Positions 1 to 5,672 of a DNA stretch of 5,672 bases are shown in pieces. The translations under genes were made by a program, and so were the position numbers. Positions within the stretch are counted from its first letter, which is position 1. Every line of letters begins with the position of its first letter. The notes under the pieces were generated by a model. That model saw only the letters and a list, made by a program, of their open reading frames with translations. It was not told the origin of the DNA and ran no database searches. Source of the stretch: Candidatus Hydrogenedens sp. (GTDB taxonomy: Bacteria; Hydrogenedentota; Hydrogenedentia; Hydrogenedentales; Hydrogenedentaceae); NCBI GenBank assembly GCA_049968235.1, contig JBMFRC010000041.1:1-5672 (forward strand), read 5' to 3'.

Positions 1-43
1 ATTTATGCTGAAAAAAATATTTTAAAATTTTTTCATAAAATGC

Positions 44-75
44 TTGACATATGAAAAAAAATGCTAAACTATAGG
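44..75 (+). promoter_or_regulatory. candidate sigma70-like promoter upstream of the cys-rich gene
   Basis: There is a perfect TTGACA -35 hexamer at 44-49. Downstream lies TGcTAAACT at 62-70, which resembles an extended -10, and TATAGG at 70-75 is an alternative -10. Spacing is suboptimal for either. The direct repeat AAAATGCT occurs at 37-44 and 58-65, 21 bp apart, flanking the -35. An AAGGGA Shine-Dalgarno site at 131-136 lies 7 nt before the ATG at 144. Confidence 0.3.
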
Positions 76-143
76 TATTGGAAAGTTGAATAACGAAAGT
101 AGTAGTCAATCAAACCAGAAGCATCAAAATAAGGGAACCTGCC

Positions 144-620
144 ATGCATATCACAAACTTCATCAAAAATTACCCTTGTATACTACTTACATTATTACTA
201 ACCTTAATATCTCCTTTATTTATTTTGAGCGAAACAAAAGTATATGCGTCTACAAAAAATCCTAAAAGCGGAGAATGCGATTGTATTTCTCAAACATCAT
301 GTCCTTATAATTTAACATATGCTATATATGGACTGGAAGGCTTTAAATGTGGACTTATAAATAATCATTGTAAGTGTAATGGTCCAGATCCTCTCAAACA
401 TTGTTCTTACCCAAAAGCAGAACTATGTGCCCCTACATCCGGAGGTTGTAGTTGTAGTAATGATTGCATGCCATCAGATTGTCCCAGGCCATGTTACCCT
501 TCTTCATGTGAAGGATGTAAGGAATACCAATTAAGTACTATTCCCTGTTCAGGGACTCCTGAACCAGGAAATTGTGGAAGATGTAATTACAAATTCAAAC
601 AACCAGGATGCGGACAATAA
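144..620 (+). CDS. small cysteine-rich secreted protein (hypothetical)
   Basis: Complete ORF of 158 aa. An AAGGGA Shine-Dalgarno site lies 7 nt upstream. The N-terminus has a long hydrophobic stretch (ILLTLLLTLISPLFIL) followed by VYA-ST, consistent with a Sec signal peptide. The mature part of about 123 aa contains 19 cysteines (about 15%) in CxC and CxxC arrangements: CDC, CKC, CSC, CEGC and CGRC. I recognise no known family. The stop at 618-620 abuts the next gene. Confidence 0.7.
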   Translation: MHITNFIKNYPCILLTLLLTLISPLFILSETKVYASTKNPKSGECDCISQTSCPYNLTYAIYGLEGFKCGLINNHCKCNGPDPLKHCSYPKAELCAPTSGGCSCSNDCMPSDCPRPCYPSSCEGCKEYQLSTIPCSGTPEPGNCGRCNYKFKQPGCGQ

Positions 621-651
621 CAATGCTATATTAATAGTAAAGAAAAATAAT

Positions 652-2034
652 ATGGAAGTATACAAAAAATTACTTTTTATAGGATTGATATTTTATAGTT
701 CCCTATTTGCACATAGTTTAGAAATATATGAAGTATCTCGGGACAGCCAGGAAGTAAAGAACTTAATCCGTATTGTGAAAACGAGATTTAATGTCTTTTC
801 GTTGAAATGTAATTATACCTCTATTGTTGATGAGGAACCATACATTTCTTATTTTGAAGATAAATATGGGAAATCTATACTTGATGAAAAAAAAGAACAA
901 GCACTATCCATAAAAAATTTTGAATTTGTCTTTCAAAAAGGGAATTTTGTCCGTATTCAAACATATACACCTCCAATAAAAAAATTATCAACAATTGATA
1001 AGCCTAGAAACTTGATAGAATTATTATCTCAAAAATTTACAACTTATCAGCAGGATAGTAATCAGGATAAATTGTTTCAAACTATAAATTATTTTTACAA
1101 CGAGGAATTAAAAACAAGGGATTACTACTATGATAGTATGCTAAATAAATATGCTTATTGGGAGTGTGCACATGACAATGAAGATATGGATCCATATACT
1201 CTTGACCCTCGTATCTGCATTGGACTATGTTCTGGAACCGCGTTTAATTGGGGAAATCTTTGGCCAAAAGAGGGCTTATTTTTCTTTATTGAAGAATTCT
1301 TAGAGAAAGAGGGGATTTTTTTCTATTGTGAAGAAGAATATAAAATTTTTTGGCATTATGTAGTATATGAACATAAAACAAAGTATAAACATGAATCTAA
1401 TTTCAGTTTCTTAGACCCCATTGGTATTGAAATATGGGTTGATAAAAATGAAAACATTTCAAAAATTGCATGTATGTTTTATCCTTGTCGTATTTTAGGA
1501 CTCCAGGAAGTAAAACAAATTATTAATAAAGATACAGAAATAACATATAACACTCCAAGTATTTTATATTGGGAATATCAGTATCAAAACTATAAAGAAT
1601 TCGAAAGTGGAATACGGATTCCGCTAAAAACTACGGTTTTACAATATTCTTTTGATAATGATAATCCATGTTTTCAATCTATTGTAAAAAAATATTTTGA
1701 CACCATTAACAAAACAAAAAATGAAATGGACATAATTAAATATCGTACAGAATTGAGTGCTTGTAATGATATATCTTTTCTATCAAGAAAAATAGAACTC
1801 ACTATATATCCAGAATCAGTAATTGTAAACAAACTAATACCGGAGGAAACATTTATCGCCCCTAAACCTGATATCTCTTTATTCAAAAATATAAATGAAG
1901 CAGAACAGTTTAAAAATAGTATAGAAAGAAACAATTCTTCTTTCCCTTCATATTTGATTTTATCTTTATTTGGTTTAATCATTATTCTTTTTTTAACTTT
2001 CCTTACATATAAATTTTGGAGATGGAGTATTTAA
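652..2034 (+). CDS. hypothetical exported protein with N-terminal signal peptide and C-terminal transmembrane anchor
   Basis: The ORF is open from 574 to 2034. The ATG at 652 is preferred as the start because it yields a classic signal peptide (MEVYKKLLFIGLIFYSSLFAHS) and avoids a 47-nt out-of-frame overlap with the upstream gene. The C-terminus is a hydrophobic helix (YLILSLFGLIIILFLTFLTY) followed by KFWRW. The ectodomain is rich in Tyr, Lys, Glu and Asn with scattered Cys and Trp, and I recognise no domain. There is no Shine-Dalgarno site, but the start lies 31 nt after the upstream stop, which suggests translational coupling within an operon. Confidence 0.7.
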   Translation: MEVYKKLLFIGLIFYSSLFAHSLEIYEVSRDSQEVKNLIRIVKTRFNVFSLKCNYTSIVDEEPYISYFEDKYGKSILDEKKEQALSIKNFEFVFQKGNFVRIQTYTPPIKKLSTIDKPRNLIELLSQKFTTYQQDSNQDKLFQTINYFYNEELKTRDYYYDSMLNKYAYWECAHDNEDMDPYTLDPRICIGLCSGTAFNWGNLWPKEGLFFFIEEFLEKEGIFFYCEEEYKIFWHYVVYEHKTKYKHESNFSFLDPIGIEIWVDKNENISKIACMFYPCRILGLQEVKQIINKDTEITYNTPSILYWEYQYQNYKEFESGIRIPLKTTVLQYSFDNDNPCFQSIVKKYFDTINKTKNEMDIIKYRTELSACNDISFLSRKIELTIYPESVIVNKLIPEETFIAPKPDISLFKNINEAEQFKNSIERNNSSFPSYLILSLFGLIIILFLTFLTYKFWRWSI

Positions 2035-2095
2035 TACATAAGAGATAGTTGAAGAATTCCATTAGAAAAAAAAATGAAAAGGGCTTTCAATAAAG

Positions 2096-2437
2096 ATGTT
2101 TCCTTTTATTAAAATATCGACATATTTTGCAGAATTTTACAACATTTTTAATTTTCTTGCGGTGTTTGTTATTGTTTTATTAGGTGTTCGGTGGAATTAT
2201 AGGTATGGGAAGAAATATCCCTTAAGATTGGGGATGTTGCTTCTGTCAGCACCGTTTGCTTTTCTGATTGACAGGATATTTTTCTTTCTTTTCCTTGCCC
2301 GTCCTTCTTCTAAGATGCAGTTTTTTAATCTGGAGAGAGGGGGAAGTATGTTTTTAGGAGCCTTTACAGGGGCTGTCTTTGGGGCTTTCATCTATAATGT
2401 TTGGGTACATTATGTATATTTTCCGATTTTATCCTGA
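2096..2437 (+). CDS. lgt: Lgt-like (prolipoprotein diacylglyceryl transferase) N-terminal fragment, probably truncated or a pseudogene
   Basis: The 113-aa polytopic membrane ORF resembles Lgt N-terminal regions. It begins FPF near the N-terminus; DRIFFFLFLA compares with ARIYYVLFEW or GRIGYVLFYNF in Lgt, and LERGGSMFLGAFTGAVFGAFIY compares with [22 protein letters not shown]. Spacing between these segments fits Lgt. However, the conserved WYG motif and the His in the GG-x-x-HGG segment are replaced. The ORF stops at about 40% of normal Lgt length. No Lgt-like continuation, including the GRxGNFxNxExxG signature, is found in the three + frames checked downstream. This is recall-based similarity, not a database search. 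Confidence 0.5.
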   Translation: MFPFIKISTYFAEFYNIFNFLAVFVIVLLGVRWNYRYGKKYPLRLGMLLLSAPFAFLIDRIFFFLFLARPSSKMQFFNLERGGSMFLGAFTGAVFGAFIYNVWVHYVYFPILS

Positions 2438-2458
2438 CGGATATATATGGACACATGT

Positions 2459-2474
2459 AAATCTGCAGATTTTT
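2459..2474 (+). terminator. weak palindromic hairpin plus T-run after the lgt-like ORF
   Basis: AAATCTGCAGATTT is a perfect palindrome that can form a short AT-rich stem with a TGCA loop, followed by TT. The stem is weak (about 5 bp, AU-rich) and the U-tract overlaps the stem, so terminator function is doubtful. Confidence 0.15.
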
Positions 2475-2634
2475 CAGAGAGAATGATTATTCGTACTTAT
2501 ATACTCATATTTTTTTATGAAACACAATGGTTCTTATATAAAACCTTCAAATTACCTTATTAAACAAAAAAAATACACAGAACCTAAATAATTTAAAATA
2601 CTGAATATCGTGTAACCATCTCTGCAAAAAAAGA

Positions 2635-2732
2635 GCGGGAACCGCATGGTTTCGCTGTTTATTAGCGGGCTATACCCGTAGCCCGTATAGTCCTGTTCGG
2701 GACTTTGTCGAAACTCTTATAGCAGTTCCCGC
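2635..2732. ncRNA. candidate structured RNA or GC-rich multi-stem element (unclassified)
   Basis: This 98-nt island is markedly more GC-rich than its flanks. Four stems are directly visible. The outer stem is GCGGGAAC (2635-2642) paired with GTTCCCGC (2725-2732), 8 bp. The inner stem is GTTTCG (2649-2654) paired with CGAAAC (2709-2714), 6 bp. Hairpin A is GCGGGCTA (2665-2672) paired with TAGCCCGT (2679-2686), 8 bp including one G-U, with loop TACCCG. Hairpin B is AGTCC (2689-2693) paired with GGACT (2700-2704), 5 bp, with loop TGTTCG. The result is a closed three-way junction inside a stacked outer helix. No ORF covers it. The transcribed strand and the family are unknown. Confidence 0.3.
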
Positions 2733-3068
2733 AAAACTTGTAAAGGCTTTTAACAAACCTTCGTATTCAATTTTCTAATAAAATTATGACACAAAAATAA
2801 AAAAAATGCAAGCAGTTTTTAAAATTTTTTATTCCCAGACTTATTCTTCATCAAAAAGACCTATTGTCCCCAATGATTTTGTATTTCCGAAAGAATTAAC
2901 TCGATTATATCTATCAAAACTTCCTATAGCACTATCACGGTTTCTTGATGGTCCCAAAAAATTCGGAGCATTATAATTATAGTTATTAAGGTTTTCCAAA
3001 GGGTTAGGAATCTTTGTTAAATCATTAATTCTATCTTCAATAGATGGTAGTTTCCAATTATTTTCCCT

Positions 3069-3130
3069 TTCACAATATTTATTATTATAATATACTATTA
3101 TAAATAAATAGAATTTATTTGCAAAAGGAG
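3069..3130 (+). promoter_or_regulatory. candidate promoter and ribosome-binding site for the large surface-protein gene
   Basis: TTCACA at 3069-3074 matches 5 of 6 positions of the -35 consensus. A 16-nt spacer precedes TATACT at 3091-3096, and an alternative TATAAT lies at 3086-3091. A strong Shine-Dalgarno site, AAGGAG at 3125-3130, sits 8 nt upstream of the ATG at 3139. The AT-rich context makes many alternative -10 elements possible. Confidence 0.3.
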
Positions 3131-3138
3131 TTTTGGCA

Positions 3139-5672
3139 ATGAAAAATAAACTGTTTATTTTAATTACATTTTTTATCTTTCTTCTACCCATTACTTCTTA
3201 CCCACTCGTTTGGGAATTTAATGCTGATGAAGGTTGGTCCGCAGGAAGTAATGTGGCAAATTTGCAAACCACAGGGGGATATTTATCTTTCGATACAACA
3301 GGGAGTGACCCAAGTGTTTATACACCTGATAATTTAGGTGTTACTGGTTCCAATTTTCGATTTATACATTTTGATATGGAGTTAAGTGCAACACCGACAC
3401 AAGGTGGACAAATTTATTTCATTACGAATGCAGATGGAGGTTGGGGAGAAGATAAAGTCATATACTTCTCTCCTACGGCAGGTAGAAACACTTATCTTAT
3501 TAATGTTCCCCAAACTATGTCAGCCAATGGAAAAGACCCGAATAAATGGTTGGGGCAAACAATAAAAAGATTAAGATTTGACCCTCCGAACAATTACATT
3601 GGAAATGTAAAAATCTACTGGTTTGGTATCACATTCGGCAGTAATTCACGCGGTGCTGTTTGGGATTTCGAAACAAACGGTGATTTTGAAGGCTGGGGTG
3701 GATTCAGTTGTGCTTCAGGACAACAGGTTACAGGCGGTTACTTAACTTTCAATTTTATCTGTACCGACCCCTTTGTATACTCCCCAAATGATTTAAGAAT
3801 CAGTGGCTCTGATTATCCATGGCTACAGGCGGATATTGAATATACTGCAAGTTATAACGACACTTTTCAGATTTTCTTCATAACAAACATGGATGGAAAT
3901 TGGACTGAAGGGAAATCTATAACTTTCCCCGGAAGAGTAGGTAGATTTACCTATTTAGTCAATATTCCACAAAGGTTAACTGAAAACAGCAAAGACCCTA
4001 ACACCTGGAACGGAAAAACAATAATGCAAATCCGGTTCGATACAGGTGGACAATCATCTGGTAGTGTCAAAATCCACTGGATAGGTATCCGTCGTGAGCC
4101 TATTCCCGATTGGCAATTCGATGTCGGTGACCATAAACAAGGCTGGACTGCTGTAAACCAAATATCAAATCTGACTGTAAGTAGTGGTGCTCTTAGTTGT
4201 AATACCACAGGGGGTGACCCATATATACAAGTTTACAACCAACATTTTAACCCTTCTACATATCGCTATTTATTAGTCCGTGCCAATATTACAAACTACG
4301 AGAATGATAACCCGGGAATTATGCAAACTTTCGGCTTCCCCGGAACCGGCGGAACAGGATATGTTAATAAAGACTACTATTTCTACCCCAACAATGGTTA
4401 TCAATGCATTCTCGTTGATATGGGAACACGCACTACTAACTCTTCCTGGTTAGGGGCTCCAGGAACTATTTCTTCCTTCCGCATTGACCCTGCAACTGTG
4501 AATACCTCTGCTACTTTCTATTATGACTATATTAAGTTATATGATTCATCCTCTCTACCTGCAGGTCCGTATAATTGGGACTTCTCAACTGCCGGAAACA
4601 ATAATTTATCCGGAAATAACTGCGGTAGTTGGGTTTCTGCCCGGCATTCACCCTATAGCGGAACTTCATTGAGTATTGCCAGTAATGTAGGTATCATAAC
4701 CGGCACCGGAACACTCGGAATAGAAAACCTCGGCTTTGCTGTAGGAAATACTTCCGCTTATCAATGGGTTCAAATTGATGTGAATCCATCTACACAAACA
4801 GATAGAAATGATTTGACTTTCCGTTATTTATGGAGAAAGGATGGACTTCGGTTAGGCGATGATTACAACACGCGAAGAAAATGGATTATTCCAACCAATA
4901 AAGGAATAAAACGCTATAATTTTTATCTCCCATACATTGCAGACCAGGATACAAACCATAATGGTACATGGGATGGCATCCCCCATGGAATATTACTCCA
5001 ATTTGGTGAAGGAGAAGCAGGTATTAATTCTATTACTATTGATAATTTCAACCTTCTTTCCTCTGCAAGCGTTCCTGCACCATCTGTATCTGAAGTTAAA
5101 GTTTCAGGAACAAGAACTGTCGATGTTTCCTTTACAAATCAAATGGATTCCAGCACCATTACTGCCTCAATGTTTACAATTTCAGGAACAGGAAGAGGCA
5201 CCTTAGGAGCAAATCCTTTCAGCGTTACATATCTTACAGGACATACTTATCGTTTGACCTGGATTGCAGGAGAAATGCGTGACGGTAGCGATATTACCAT
5301 AACTGTATCGAATTCTGTACAAGACGCTGCAGGAAGAAATTTAACATCTCCCACAAGCGGAACTCATACCGGTGGTGGTATAAAAATAGATGCCCCTACT
5401 GTCTCTGCTGTAACCTCTCCCGCTTTTGCAAATACATTGCCCATAACAATTAGTTATACGGGTGCTGCAGACAATACAAGCAATGTTAGTAGCATAGAAC
5501 TATGGGCTAAAAAAGGTTCCGAAGGAACCTGGGCTTTTACAGGTCAAACATCTGTTTCTGCCCCCAATGGAAGTATCAATTTCAATAGTCCCACAGGAGA
5601 AGATACATACTACTTTGATGTTGTGGTAATTGATGGTGCCGGTAATCGGAGCGATACTCCTACGGGAAATGG
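3139..5672 (+). CDS. large secreted repetitive surface protein (adhesin or glycan-binding-like), 3' partial and continuing beyond the window
   Basis: The frame is open from the ATG at 3139 to the window end, so at least 844 codons, and it has an optimal Shine-Dalgarno site. The N-terminus MKNKLFILITFFIFLLPITSYP is a typical signal peptide. There are four tandem modules of about 140-160 aa. Each begins with a W-(E/D)-F motif and ends with a segment such as IYWFGI, IHWIGI, IKLY or IDNFNL. Modules 1 and 2 are clearly homologous (GGYLSFDTTGSDPSVYTPDNL compares with GGYLTFNFICTDPFVYSPNDL, and GRNTYLINVPQ...KDPNKW...RFD compares with GRFTYLVNIPQ...KDPNTW...RFD). These are followed by at least two Ig-like modules of about 100 aa (for example TYYFDVVVIDGAGNRS). 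The composition is rich in Gly, Thr, Ser and Asn. The C-terminal sorting signal cannot be seen. Confidence 0.85.
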   Translation, partial: MKNKLFILITFFIFLLPITSYPLVWEFNADEGWSAGSNVANLQTTGGYLSFDTTGSDPSVYTPDNLGVTGSNFRFIHFDMELSATPTQGGQIYFITNADGGWGEDKVIYFSPTAGRNTYLINVPQTMSANGKDPNKWLGQTIKRLRFDPPNNYIGNVKIYWFGITFGSNSRGAVWDFETNGDFEGWGGFSCASGQQVTGGYLTFNFICTDPFVYSPNDLRISGSDYPWLQADIEYTASYNDTFQIFFITNMDGNWTEGKSITFPGRVGRFTYLVNIPQRLTENSKDPNTWNGKTIMQIRFDTGGQSSGSVKIHWIGIRREPIPDWQFDVGDHKQGWTAVNQISNLTVSSGALSCNTTGGDPYIQVYNQHFNPSTYRYLLVRANITNYENDNPGIMQTFGFPGTGGTGYVNKDYYFYPNNGYQCILVDMGTRTTNSSWLGAPGTISSFRIDPATVNTSATFYYDYIKLYDSSSLPAGPYNWDFSTAGNNNLSGNNCGSWVSARHSPYSGTSLSIASNVGIITGTGTLGIENLGFAVGNTSAYQWVQIDVNPSTQTDRNDLTFRYLWRKDGLRLGDDYNTRRKWIIPTNKGIKRYNFYLPYIADQDTNHNGTWDGIPHGILLQFGEGEAGINSITIDNFNLLSSASVPAPSVSEVKVSGTRTVDVSFTNQMDSSTITASMFTISGTGRGTLGANPFSVTYLTGHTYRLTWIAGEMRDGSDITITVSNSVQDAAGRNLTSPTSGTHTGGGIKIDAPTVSAVTSPAFANTLPITISYTGAADNTSNVSSIELWAKKGSEGTWAFTGQTSVSAPNGSINFNSPTGEDTYYFDVVVIDGAGNRSDTPTGN
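3208..5055 (+). repeat. intragenic tandem domain duplication (four modules, R1 to R4) at protein level
   Basis: R1 is 3208-3630, R2 is 3658-4089, R3 is 4108-4542 and R4 is 4570-5055. R1 and R2 share an estimated 35-40% identity judged by eye across the full module. R3 and R4 are more divergent but keep the W-x-F ... GW ... GDP start and the hydrophobic end motif. The DNA-level repeat is weak; the duplication is ancient. Confidence 0.55.

What the first reader, a model, noticed from the sequence alone, without database searches (positions are those of the whole stretch)
3139..5672. Giant secreted protein built from four tandem W-x-F ... GW modules followed by Ig-like domains
The gene encodes at least 844 aa and is still open at the window end. 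Four successive modules of about 140-160 aa each show the same skeleton: a W-(D/E)-F start, a G-W about 7 residues later, a GG-Y-L-(S/T)-F or GDP core, and a terminal hydrophobic beta-strand such as I-(Y/H)-W-(F/I)-G-I or YIKLY. That skeleton suggests a beta-sandwich binding module like a carbohydrate-binding module (CBM), discoidin or jelly-roll fold. I cannot place it in a named family. The modules are followed by Ig-like domains of the type found in Big, cadherin or SbsA-like families (TYYFDVVVIDGAGNRS). This architecture fits an adhesin or a polysaccharide-binding surface protein.
Basis: partly seen in the sequence, partly recalled or inferred. Interest (0 to 1): 0.55.

Follow-up and report, generated by a model that had tools for sequence, protein, structure and literature searches.

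The report
Surface adhesin with CBM-like head
This is the first 844 residues of a roughly 1,800-residue secreted protein from a Hydrogenedentota bacterium: four copies of an unnamed but widespread sugar-binding-type beta-sandwich module sit on a stalk of Ig-like domains, which is an ordinary adhesin design built from an uncatalogued module family.

Summary
Window 3139-5672(+) is an intact 844-codon ORF with a Sec-type leader, four tandem ~150-170-aa modules and two Ig-like domains. M1/M2 are clear duplicates (45% identity, E=3e-44). M3 is a distant copy (E=5e-8). M4 links only through profile comparison, its orthologues and its predicted fold.

A 77%-identical full-length orthologue (L004, 1,800 aa) shows the rest: seven Ig2-type repeats, Big_13 domains and a C-terminal TM helix. 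It has no catalytic domain and no recognised sorting signal. Related genes place PA14 lectin domains on the same stalk.

Best reading: an envelope-anchored, multivalent glycan-binding adhesin. The architecture is shown; sugar binding and surface exposure are inferred. It is a new member of a known kind and of modest interest. Its main value is pointing to a large uncatalogued CBM-like family shared by bacteria and phage tails.

The parts
3069..3096 (+). Promoter-like site, TTCACA-16 nt-TATACT, about 43 nt upstream of the start codon
   Evidence: Consensus scan, 10 of 12 matches. The region is AT-rich and such matches are common there (10 found against 4.9 expected), so this is only a candidate.
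3125..3130 (+). Shine-Dalgarno-like AAGGAG, 8 nt before the ATG at 3139
   Evidence: Read directly from the sequence.
3139..3198 (+). Sec-type signal peptide (about aa 1-20): MKNK + hydrophobic LFILITFFIFLLPI + TS; no lipobox Cys
   Evidence: Sequence. Orthologues and relatives have equivalent leaders ending in VHA, AFA or AQA immediately before the first module. No signal-peptide predictor was available, so the cleavage site is approximate.
3199..3654 (+). Module M1 (aa 21-172): CBM-like beta-jelly-roll of the unnamed W-x-F...GW family
3655..4104 (+). Module M2 (aa 173-322): tandem duplicate of M1
   Evidence: The duplication predates the split from P0002: M2~P0002-M2 is 70% and M1~P0002-M1 is 57%, against 44% for M1~M2. 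Relatives P0004-P0007 have a single M1-type module.
4105..4560 (+). Module M3 (aa 323-474): divergent copy of the same family, with an inserted G/P-rich loop (FGFPGTGGTGY)
   Evidence: M1~M3 is 27% identical, E=5e-8. It aligns over its full length in A1 and keeps the conserved W, GW, GDP, W and R-x-D-P positions.
4561..5073 (+). Module M4 (aa 475-645): very divergent fourth jelly-roll module
5074..5373 (+). Ig-like domain 1 (aa 646-745): Pfam Big_5 (PF13205)
   Evidence: 30.7 bits against a cutoff of 23.6, E=5.4e-7.
5374..5672 (+). Ig/FnIII-like domain 2 (aa 746-844): first of seven tandem repeats in the orthologue; the window ends at its last residues
   Evidence: A repeat HMM finds 7 copies in L004 and 4 in the L003 ORF. 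The profile matches SiiE BIg (2yn3, E=7e-5) and ChiA1 FnIII (1k85, E=6e-4). In the orthologue, NCBIfam barrel_OmpL47 scores 44.4 bits against a cutoff of 40, and Pfam Big_3_2 scores 30.7 against 23.3. The window copy alone is below cutoff.

Best explanation
The gene encodes the N-terminal 844 residues of a non-enzymatic envelope protein of about 1,800 aa from a Candidatus Hydrogenedens-like bacterium.

Proposed mechanism:
- A Sec leader exports the protein.
- The mature N-terminus is a 'head' of four CBM-like beta-jelly-roll modules. M1 and M2 are recent duplicates; M3 and M4 are old, divergent paralogues.
- Behind the head, a rod of Ig-like domains acts as a spacer: Big_5, then about seven BIg/FnIII-like repeats, then Big_13 domains.
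- A single C-terminal hydrophobic helix with a short basic tail holds the protein in, or hands it over to, the cell envelope.
- The head binds polysaccharide or glycoconjugate ligands on other cells, on particles or in a matrix. Four modules give avidity and probably more than one specificity.

Shown here: the reading frame, the repeat relationships, the fold (predicted), homology to the phage Megatron domain, the full-length architecture in a 77%-identical orthologue, and the interchange with PA14 heads.

Inferred: carbohydrate as the ligand, exposure at the cell surface, and that the window gene continues like its orthologue.
For: ORF and leader.

Repeats.

Homology to the Megatron domain: the profile hits 8gtc_M residues 490-626 at E=1.8e-12 and nothing else in the PDB. 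The authors call this stretch the carbohydrate-binding domain, 482-629, on similarity to CtCBM11 (PMC10276861).

Other phage tail proteins: a true module copy sits in a Klebsiella phage tail-fibre protein (32 bits). The closest viral folds are tail-tip and straight-fibre proteins.

Family context: 5,474 representatives carry the module, commonly as 2-8 tandem copies. In 45 relatives it co-occurs with WbsX/GH99-like, beta-helix/pectate-lyase-like, GH28, GH5, CBM96, sialidase-like CBM and F5/8-C domains.

Full-length orthologue L004 (1,800 aa, 77% identity over aa 2-844): head, Big_5, 7 repeats, Big_13 and a TM helix, with no catalytic domain. Full-length P0005 (1,421 aa) has the same logic with a different Ig stalk.

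Head swapping: the L006 and L003 genes carry three PA14 domains (E=3.6e-47 and 4.5e-51) on the same Big_5/Ig2 stalk, 63% identical to L004's stalk. PA14 is an experimentally established lectin domain of a bacterial adhesin (PMC8092209).
Against: - No ligand has been measured for any member of this module family. The Megatron label rests only on topology in a backbone-level model.
- The window protein and its full-length orthologue carry no carbohydrate-active enzyme domain. No glycan-utilisation genes are adjacent in the window.
- The C-terminal anchor matches no known sorting signal. In a diderm cell, a Sec leader plus a C-terminal TM helix would by default leave the protein in the periplasm, tethered to the inner membrane, so surface exposure is unproven.
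- The C-terminal 950 residues are inferred from an orthologue, not seen in the window.
- M4's model is only moderately confident (pLDDT 70).
Confidence: 0.6

Rival explanations
1. The head binds something other than carbohydrate (a protein, mineral or lipid surface), or the protein is a structural sheath or S-layer-like envelope component. The jelly-roll modules would then act as generic interaction or spacer domains.
Against: The top structural neighbours are overwhelmingly CBMs. The family recurs beside glycoside hydrolase and lyase-type domains and in phage tail tips that target polysaccharide-coated hosts. PA14 lectin heads replace it on the same stalk.
Confidence: 0.25
2. The modules are accessory CBMs of a carbohydrate-active enzyme whose catalytic domain lies beyond the window end.
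For: The window ends inside the gene. In other lineages the module is fused to beta-helix, GH5, GH28 and GH99/WbsX-like domains.
Against: The 77%-identical, collinear full-length orthologue has only Ig-like domains and a TM helix after residue 648. Full-length P0005 likewise has only Ig-type repeats. P0002 and P0003 continue into a second Ig2 repeat.
Confidence: 0.05
3. The gene is phage-derived (a prophage tail or receptor-binding protein) rather than a cellular surface protein.
For: The only solved homologue and several sequence and fold matches are phage tail proteins.
Against: The gene has an N-terminal Sec leader and a C-terminal TM anchor. There are no PHROGs hits. There are no phage-type neighbours in the window, L002, L004 or L006. 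The great majority of the 5,474 family members sampled are cellular multidomain proteins.
Confidence: 0.03
4. The ORF is a pseudogene or an assembly artefact.
For: Every database copy from this lineage is partial. The neighbourhood holds decayed genes: a truncated Lgt-like ORF and a 75-codon remnant.
Against: There are 844 codons without a stop, and a collinear, intact 1,800-aa orthologue. A copy from another assembly (P0001) differs at a single residue over the 634 shared residues. The partial copies all break at orthologue residues 848-878, the start of the 7x tandem repeat, which is a typical short-read assembly break.
Confidence: 0.02

Closest known systems
'Carbohydrate-binding domain' (residues 482-629) of the Megatron baseplate protein of roseophage vB_DshS-R4C (PDB 8gtc chain M; PMC10276861)
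   Different: It is a single copy inserted in a phage baseplate protein, not a tandem array on a cellular Sec-exported protein. Its name rests on topology similarity to CtCBM11 in a backbone-only model, and no ligand is known.
Type-B beta-jelly-roll carbohydrate-binding modules (CBM11, CBM29, CBM28, CBM22, CBM15, CBM4, CBM27, CBM30, laminarin-binding X584)
   Different: Sequence identity is only 7-18%. No Pfam CBM model and no CBM sequence in the PDB is detected even with the family profile. No binding data exist. Here the modules sit on a non-enzymatic protein.
Lectin-headed fibrillar adhesins with Ig-like stalks (e.g. the PA14-bearing Marinomonas MpIBP, PMC8092209; Salmonella SiiE BIg repeats, PDB 2yn3)
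   Same: The design logic is the same: ligand-binding domain(s) at the distal end of a rod of tandem Ig-like repeats. The Ig2 repeat shares the C-terminal '...Y..V.D.AGN.S' strand motif with SiiE BIg domains. Sister genes in the same phylum carry PA14 heads on the same stalk.
   Different: The topology is opposite. Here a Sec leader sits at the N-terminus, the head is N-terminal and the anchor is a C-terminal TM helix. RTX adhesins have a C-terminal T1SS signal and an N-terminal retention module. No RTX repeats were found. The protein is also much shorter (1.8 k aa, versus the 1.5-MDa MpIBP).
Hydrogenedentota relatives P0005, P0006 and P0007 ('DUF5011 domain-containing protein' or unnamed)
   Same: The same head family in the same order, M1-type, M3-type then M4-type, at 33-39% identity, with a Sec leader.
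   Different: They have three modules, not four (no M1/M2 duplication). The stalk differs: He_PIG + Bact_surface_Ig-like/HYR. The tail differs: VPVAGPAGL...RRRA.

Membership tests
Unnamed W-x-F...GW module family (Megatron 'carbohydrate-binding domain' family) | Significant sequence similarity over the whole ~140-aa module | tested here: met
   M1 alone against 8gtc_M gives E=1.9e-5. The M1-M3 profile gives E=1.8e-12 over profile positions 7-140. 5,474 representatives match at E<=1e-3. M4 is met only transitively.
Unnamed W-x-F...GW module family (Megatron 'carbohydrate-binding domain' family) | Shared three-dimensional fold | tested here: met
Carbohydrate-binding module (CAZy sense) | Beta-sandwich/jelly-roll fold typical of type-B CBMs | tested here: met
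Carbohydrate-binding module (CAZy sense) | Sequence membership in a numbered CBM family | tested here: not met
   No Pfam CBM model hits at E<=10, in the window protein or in 10 module-rich relatives. The family profile finds no CBM chain in the PDB. CAZy/dbCAN HMMs were not available, so families without a Pfam model or a structure remain untested.
Carbohydrate-binding module (CAZy sense) | Demonstrated binding to a carbohydrate | not testable with these tools
   No experimental data exist for any member. The Megatron label is by topology only.
Carbohydrate-binding module (CAZy sense) | Contiguous with a carbohydrate-active catalytic module | tested here: not met
   The orthologue L004 and P0005 have no catalytic domain. 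Other family members do: WbsX/GH99-like, beta-helix, GH28 and GH5.
Bacterial Ig-like domain Big_5 (PF13205) | Score above Pfam's gathering threshold | tested here: met
   aa 648-739 score 27.4 bits in the whole protein and 30.7 bits in the fragment, against a cutoff of 23.6.
Big_3_2 (PF12245) / OmpL47-type beta-domain (NF047446) for the second Ig-like domain | Score above the curated threshold | tested here: inconclusive
   The window copy scores 14.5 bits against a cutoff of 23.3. The orthologue with 7 copies passes: Big_3_2 30.7 against 23.3, NF047446 44.4 against 40. The repeat profile hits SiiE BIg at E=7e-5 and an FnIII domain at E=6e-4.
Known C-terminal sorting signals (T9SS CTD, LPXTG, PEP-CTERM and relatives, SLH) | Match to the corresponding Pfam/NCBIfam model at the C-terminus | tested here: not met
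   The C-terminus is outside the window. In orthologue L004 nothing matches: the best is srtB_target at 12.8 bits against 18.15. Tails of relatives fall below cutoff for PVV-CTERM (18 against 27) and IPTL-CTERM (17.6 against 20.5).
RTX / T1SS giant adhesins (SiiE, MpIBP type) | RTX repeats and a C-terminal T1SS signal, with no N-terminal Sec leader | tested here: not met
   A Sec-type leader is present. There are no RTX/HemolysinCabind hits in the orthologue, and its C-terminus is a TM helix.
PA14 lectin-domain adhesins | Presence of a PA14 domain (PF07691) | tested here: not met
   There is no PA14 hit in the window protein or in L004. PA14 occurs only in sister genes L003 and L006 on the same stalk. 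This is a functional analogy, not membership.

The most novel reading that the evidence does not exclude
The W-x-F...GW module defines a large (at least 5,000 clusters at 50% identity), still uncatalogued carbohydrate-binding module family. It is shared by bacterial surface proteins, carbohydrate-active enzymes and phage tail tips (Megatron, a Klebsiella phage giant tail fibre). In Hydrogenedentota it forms an exchangeable adhesin head, alternating with PA14, that attaches these uncultured cells to polysaccharide-coated partners, prey or particles. A not-yet-described C-terminal sorting tail would mediate surface display.
Probability: 0.3. Interest if true: 0.5.

Novelty: new member of a known kind. 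Interest (0 to 1): 0.3.

Why it matters
If the modules bind glycans, this gene would give a handle on how members of an uncultured phylum (Hydrogenedentota) attach to substrates or other cells.

More generally, it flags a domain family of thousands of members with no Pfam or NCBIfam model. That family links cellular adhesins and CAZymes to phage receptor-binding proteins. Defining its ligand(s) would improve annotation of many 'hypothetical' or 'Ig-like domain-containing' proteins and of phage host-range determinants.

The design itself, a lectin-like head on an Ig-like stalk with a C-terminal anchor, is conventional.

Tried and rejected
- Self-BLAST of the whole protein gave only the trivial hit; module-by-module BLAST was needed.
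- My first iterative HMM run pulled M4 in through an 8.7-bit match and then reinforced itself. I rejected it as circular and replaced it with separate profiles.
- The search for homologous proteins with the module alignment returned nothing, not even the known relatives. I treat that as a limit of the word index, not as evidence.
- The same tool with M4 alone found only P0166, a mis-called fragment.
- The genome-contig scan found only a distant PA14-headed relative.
- An exact-match DNA scan of the metagenomes with the window's 3' end found nothing. The peptide-pattern scan then found L004.
- The neighbouring ORFs of the window are not conserved in L001-L003.
- Rival readings considered and rejected: enzyme with a downstream catalytic domain, prophage tail protein, pseudogene (see rivals).
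- A literature search for a prior description of Hydrogenedentota adhesins or of this module found nothing relevant.
Full report
**1. The observation**

Window 3139-5672 (+) translates into 844 codons without a stop and runs off the window end. An AAGGAG lies 8 nt before the ATG, and a sigma-70-like TTCACA-16-TATACT pair lies at 3069-3096. The N-terminus (MKNK, then a 14-residue hydrophobic core, then TS) is a Sec-type leader without a lipobox cysteine. Relatives have equivalent leaders ending in VHA, AFA or AQA directly before the first module.

I set the module boundaries at M1 aa 21-172, M2 173-322, M3 323-474 and M4 475-645, followed by two ~100-aa domains (646-745 and 746-844).

- M1 and M2 are 45% identical (E=3e-44).
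- M1 and M3 are 27% identical (E=5e-8).
- M4 shows no significant BLAST similarity to the others.

It fits M4 only loosely: M4 has no GDP and no GG-Y-L-S/T-F, and its G-S-W comes 17 residues after W-D-F.

**2. Is M4 a fourth copy?**

A naive iterative HMM search recruited M4 through an 8.7-bit match, which is circular. I therefore built separate alignments: A1 holds 18 M1/M2/M3-type modules and A2 holds 7 M4-type modules.

- Profile-profile comparison gives 78% probability, E=1.8e-5, with 138 collinear columns.
- An A1 HMM with no M4 sequences scores the orthologous M4 modules of P0007 and P0006 at 24.8 and 23.2 bits, and that of P0026 at 17.7 bits. It scores the window's own M4 at only 5.3 bits.
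- The A2 HMM weakly hits ordinary modules in return.

I conclude that M4 is a very divergent member of the same family. This is probable, not certain.

**3. What the module is**

No Pfam, NCBIfam or PHROGs model matches the modules. This holds for the window protein at E<=10 and for ten module-rich relatives.

The only solved structure detectable by sequence is the Megatron baseplate protein of roseophage vB_DshS-R4C. M1 alone gives E=1.9e-5, and the A1 profile gives E=1.8e-12 on residues 490-626. That stretch is exactly what the authors call the 'carbohydrate-binding domain (482-629)'. They named it for its topology similarity to CtCBM11, in a backbone-level model, with no binding data (PMC10276861).

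**4. How widespread it is**

An exhaustive profile search of 1.84 billion cluster representatives finds 5,474 proteins at E<=1e-3, 2,401 at E<=1e-10 and 307 at E<=1e-30. The 148 listed best-scoring proteins not already fetched carry 2-8 copies each, with a median inter-copy gap of 9 residues. Tandem arrays are therefore the norm among the strongest hits.

Members come from Omnitrophota, Paenibacillus, Hydrogenedentota and metagenomes. Their sources name them only by their other domains, or as hypothetical.

In 45 relatives with substantial non-module sequence, the co-occurring Pfam families are these:

- Glyco_tran_WbsX (6)
- fn3 (5)
- Beta_helix (4)
- GH99, pectate-lyase-like, sialidase-like CBM and F5/8-C-like (2 each)
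- GH28, GH5, CBM96 and SLH (1 each)

This association fits an accessory glycan-binding role, although most relatives carry no recognisable enzyme domain.

**5. The rest of the gene**

The closest database proteins are partial Candidatus Hydrogenedens MAG proteins: P0001 (one substitution over 634 shared residues), P0002 (69%) and P0003 (73%). A JGI metagenome contig (L004) carries a collinear orthologue, 77% identical over window residues 2-844, that is complete at 1,800 aa. Its architecture is:

| Segment | Residues |
|---|---|
| Signal peptide | N-terminus |
| M1 | 23-174 |
| M2 | 176-325 |
| M3 | 326-476 |
| M4 | ~480-648 |
| Big_5 | 651-743 |
| Seven Ig2-type repeats | 757-1465 |
| Big_13 domains | ~1470-1740 |
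| C-terminal tail | ...GGYGLILLMVLIGVISFTVLI-RPTKQQE* |

There is no catalytic domain and no T9SS CTD, LPXTG, PEP-CTERM-type or SLH match.

The window, P0001, P0002 and P0003 all break at orthologue residues 848-878, the boundary between the first and second Ig2 repeats. That is what short-read assemblies do at tandem repeats, and it explains why the window ends there.

The Ig2 repeat profile matches the BIg domains of the Salmonella adhesin SiiE (2yn3, E=7e-5) and a chitinase FnIII domain (1k85, E=6e-4).

**6. Evidence from architecture swaps**

More distant relatives (P0004-P0007) keep the head in the order M1-type, M3-type, M4-type, with three modules. M1/M2 is a lineage-specific duplication that predates the window/P0002 split. 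These relatives carry a different stalk (He_PIG, Bact_surface_Ig-like/HYR) and a 'VPVAGPAGL...RRRA' tail.

The converse also occurs. The L003 gene (1,701 aa) and the L006 gene place three PA14 domains (E=4.5e-51 and 3.6e-47) in front of the same Big_5/Ig2 stalk, which in L006 is 63% identical to L004's. In L006 a start-less remnant of M3-M4 lies immediately upstream of the PA14-headed gene.

PA14 is an experimentally established lectin domain of a bacterial adhesin (PMC8092209). A known sugar-binding head thus occupies the position of the W-x-F array on the same stalk. This is the best indirect evidence here that the array is the ligand-binding end of an adhesin.

**7. Mechanism and its weak points**

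The proposed steps are Sec export, then an N-terminal multivalent CBM-like head, then an Ig-like rod as spacer, then C-terminal anchoring.

- Shown: frame, repeats, predicted fold, homology and the orthologue's architecture.
- Inferred: glycan as the ligand, surface exposure, and identity of the unseen C-terminal half with that of L004.

The anchor is unresolved. In a diderm cell, a C-terminal TM helix would by default tether the protein to the inner membrane. The tripartite tails of relatives (motif, TM helix, basic cluster) look like sorting signals but fall below every NCBIfam cutoff.

**8. Rivals**

- A non-glycan ligand or a purely structural role is the only serious rival (about 0.25). 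The fold also serves protein-binding domains, and no member of the family has a measured ligand.
- An enzyme with a downstream catalytic domain is contradicted by the complete orthologues.
- A prophage origin is contradicted by the leader, the anchor, the context and the PHROGs result.
- A pseudogene or artefact is contradicted by the intact collinear orthologue and by a near-identical independent assembly.

**9. Novelty and score**

The protein is a new member of a known kind: a lectin-type head on an Ig-like stalk. What is mildly notable is that the head module belongs to a large family with no curated model. Its one solved representative sits in a phage baseplate.

That is useful for annotation and for phage receptor-binding biology, but it would not surprise a specialist. 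Interest is 0.3. The most novel reading not excluded, a new CBM family plus an undescribed sorting tail used for cell attachment in an uncultured phylum, gets probability about 0.3 and interest 0.5.

**10. Side observations**

The notebook and the list below record several things outside the finding. The main one is a ~100-nt, almost perfectly conserved and strongly folding element at 2635-2733 with no Rfam match.

Noticed in passing
window 2633-2745 (core 2635-2733): A ~110-nt block is almost identical (2 mismatches) between the window and L004 561-675, although the flanking coding DNA is only 75-85% identical. Its ends are complementary (GCGGGAAC / GTTCCCGC). It folds into an 8-bp closing stem plus two hairpins (MFE -44 kcal/mol, z about -4.2 on either strand, 0 of 200 shuffles as good). 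There is no Rfam or tRNA match and no copy in the viral contigs or the other loci. It is a candidate small RNA or repeat element. With only two copies, no covariation test is possible.
   Followed up: partly
window 2841-3191 (-), homologous part 2841-3065: The minus-strand ORF that overlaps the adhesin start codon is a 75-codon C-terminal remnant (71% identity). The intact version is a 300-aa secreted repeat protein encoded divergently from the adhesin gene in L004 (777-1679). The window lacks about 700 bp (L004 984-1683). The N-terminal part of the window ORF looks like a chance extension through AT-rich DNA.
   Followed up: yes
window 2096-2437 (+): This 113-aa membrane ORF has weak similarity to the first ~100 of 240 positions of prolipoprotein diacylglyceryl transferase (Pfam LGT, E=0.005, below cutoff). 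It looks like a truncated or frameshifted Lgt-like gene.
   Followed up: partly
window 144-620 (+) and 574-2034 (+): The first is a small exported protein of 158 aa with 20 cysteines (12.7%) and no family hit. The second is a 486-aa protein with an N-terminal signal/TM segment and a C-terminal TM helix, also without a family hit. Neither is conserved next to the adhesin gene in L001-L004.
   Followed up: partly
window 1-3138 versus 3139-5672; L004: The adhesin gene is markedly more GC-rich than its surroundings: 40.3% against 30.1% in the window, and 46.7% against 36-37% in L004. This may reflect its G/T/S/N-rich composition or a separate history. It was not resolved.
   Followed up: no
L006 7782-8645 and 8787-12089; L003 7520-12625: Heads are swapped on a shared stalk. 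Genes with three PA14 domains carry the same Big_5/Ig2 stalk as the window protein's orthologue. In L006 a start-less M3-M4 remnant lies just upstream of the PA14-headed gene, as if one head had replaced the other.
   Followed up: yes
C-termini of P0005 (aa 1387-1421), the L003 ORF (last 36 aa) and the L004 ORF (last 42 aa): The tails are tripartite (short motif, TM helix, basic cluster): 'VPVAGPAGLMLAGLGLALLGARSFRRRA', 'VPVGGVAGLAALVAALAAGAAGVMRRRR' and 'GGYGLILLMVLIGVISFTVLIRPTKQQE'. They resemble exosortase- or sortase-type sorting signals but fall below all NCBIfam cutoffs (PVV-CTERM 18 against 27; IPTL-CTERM 17.6 against 20.5). They may be an undescribed sorting signal in Hydrogenedentota.
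   Followed up: partly
window end (5672); P0001, P0002, P0003: All four independent partial copies of this gene stop at orthologue residues 848-878, the junction of the first and second of seven ~100-aa tandem repeats. This is a systematic assembly break, so database entries for this protein family are truncated there.
   Followed up: yes
L005 (Klebsiella phage 48ST307, KY271402.1, tail fiber protein AQN32347.1), locus aa ~1002-1135: A giant (9.6-kb) phage tail-fibre gene contains one full-length copy of the W-x-F...GW module (32 bits). It is the second phage lineage, besides roseophage R4C, to carry the module.
   Followed up: yes
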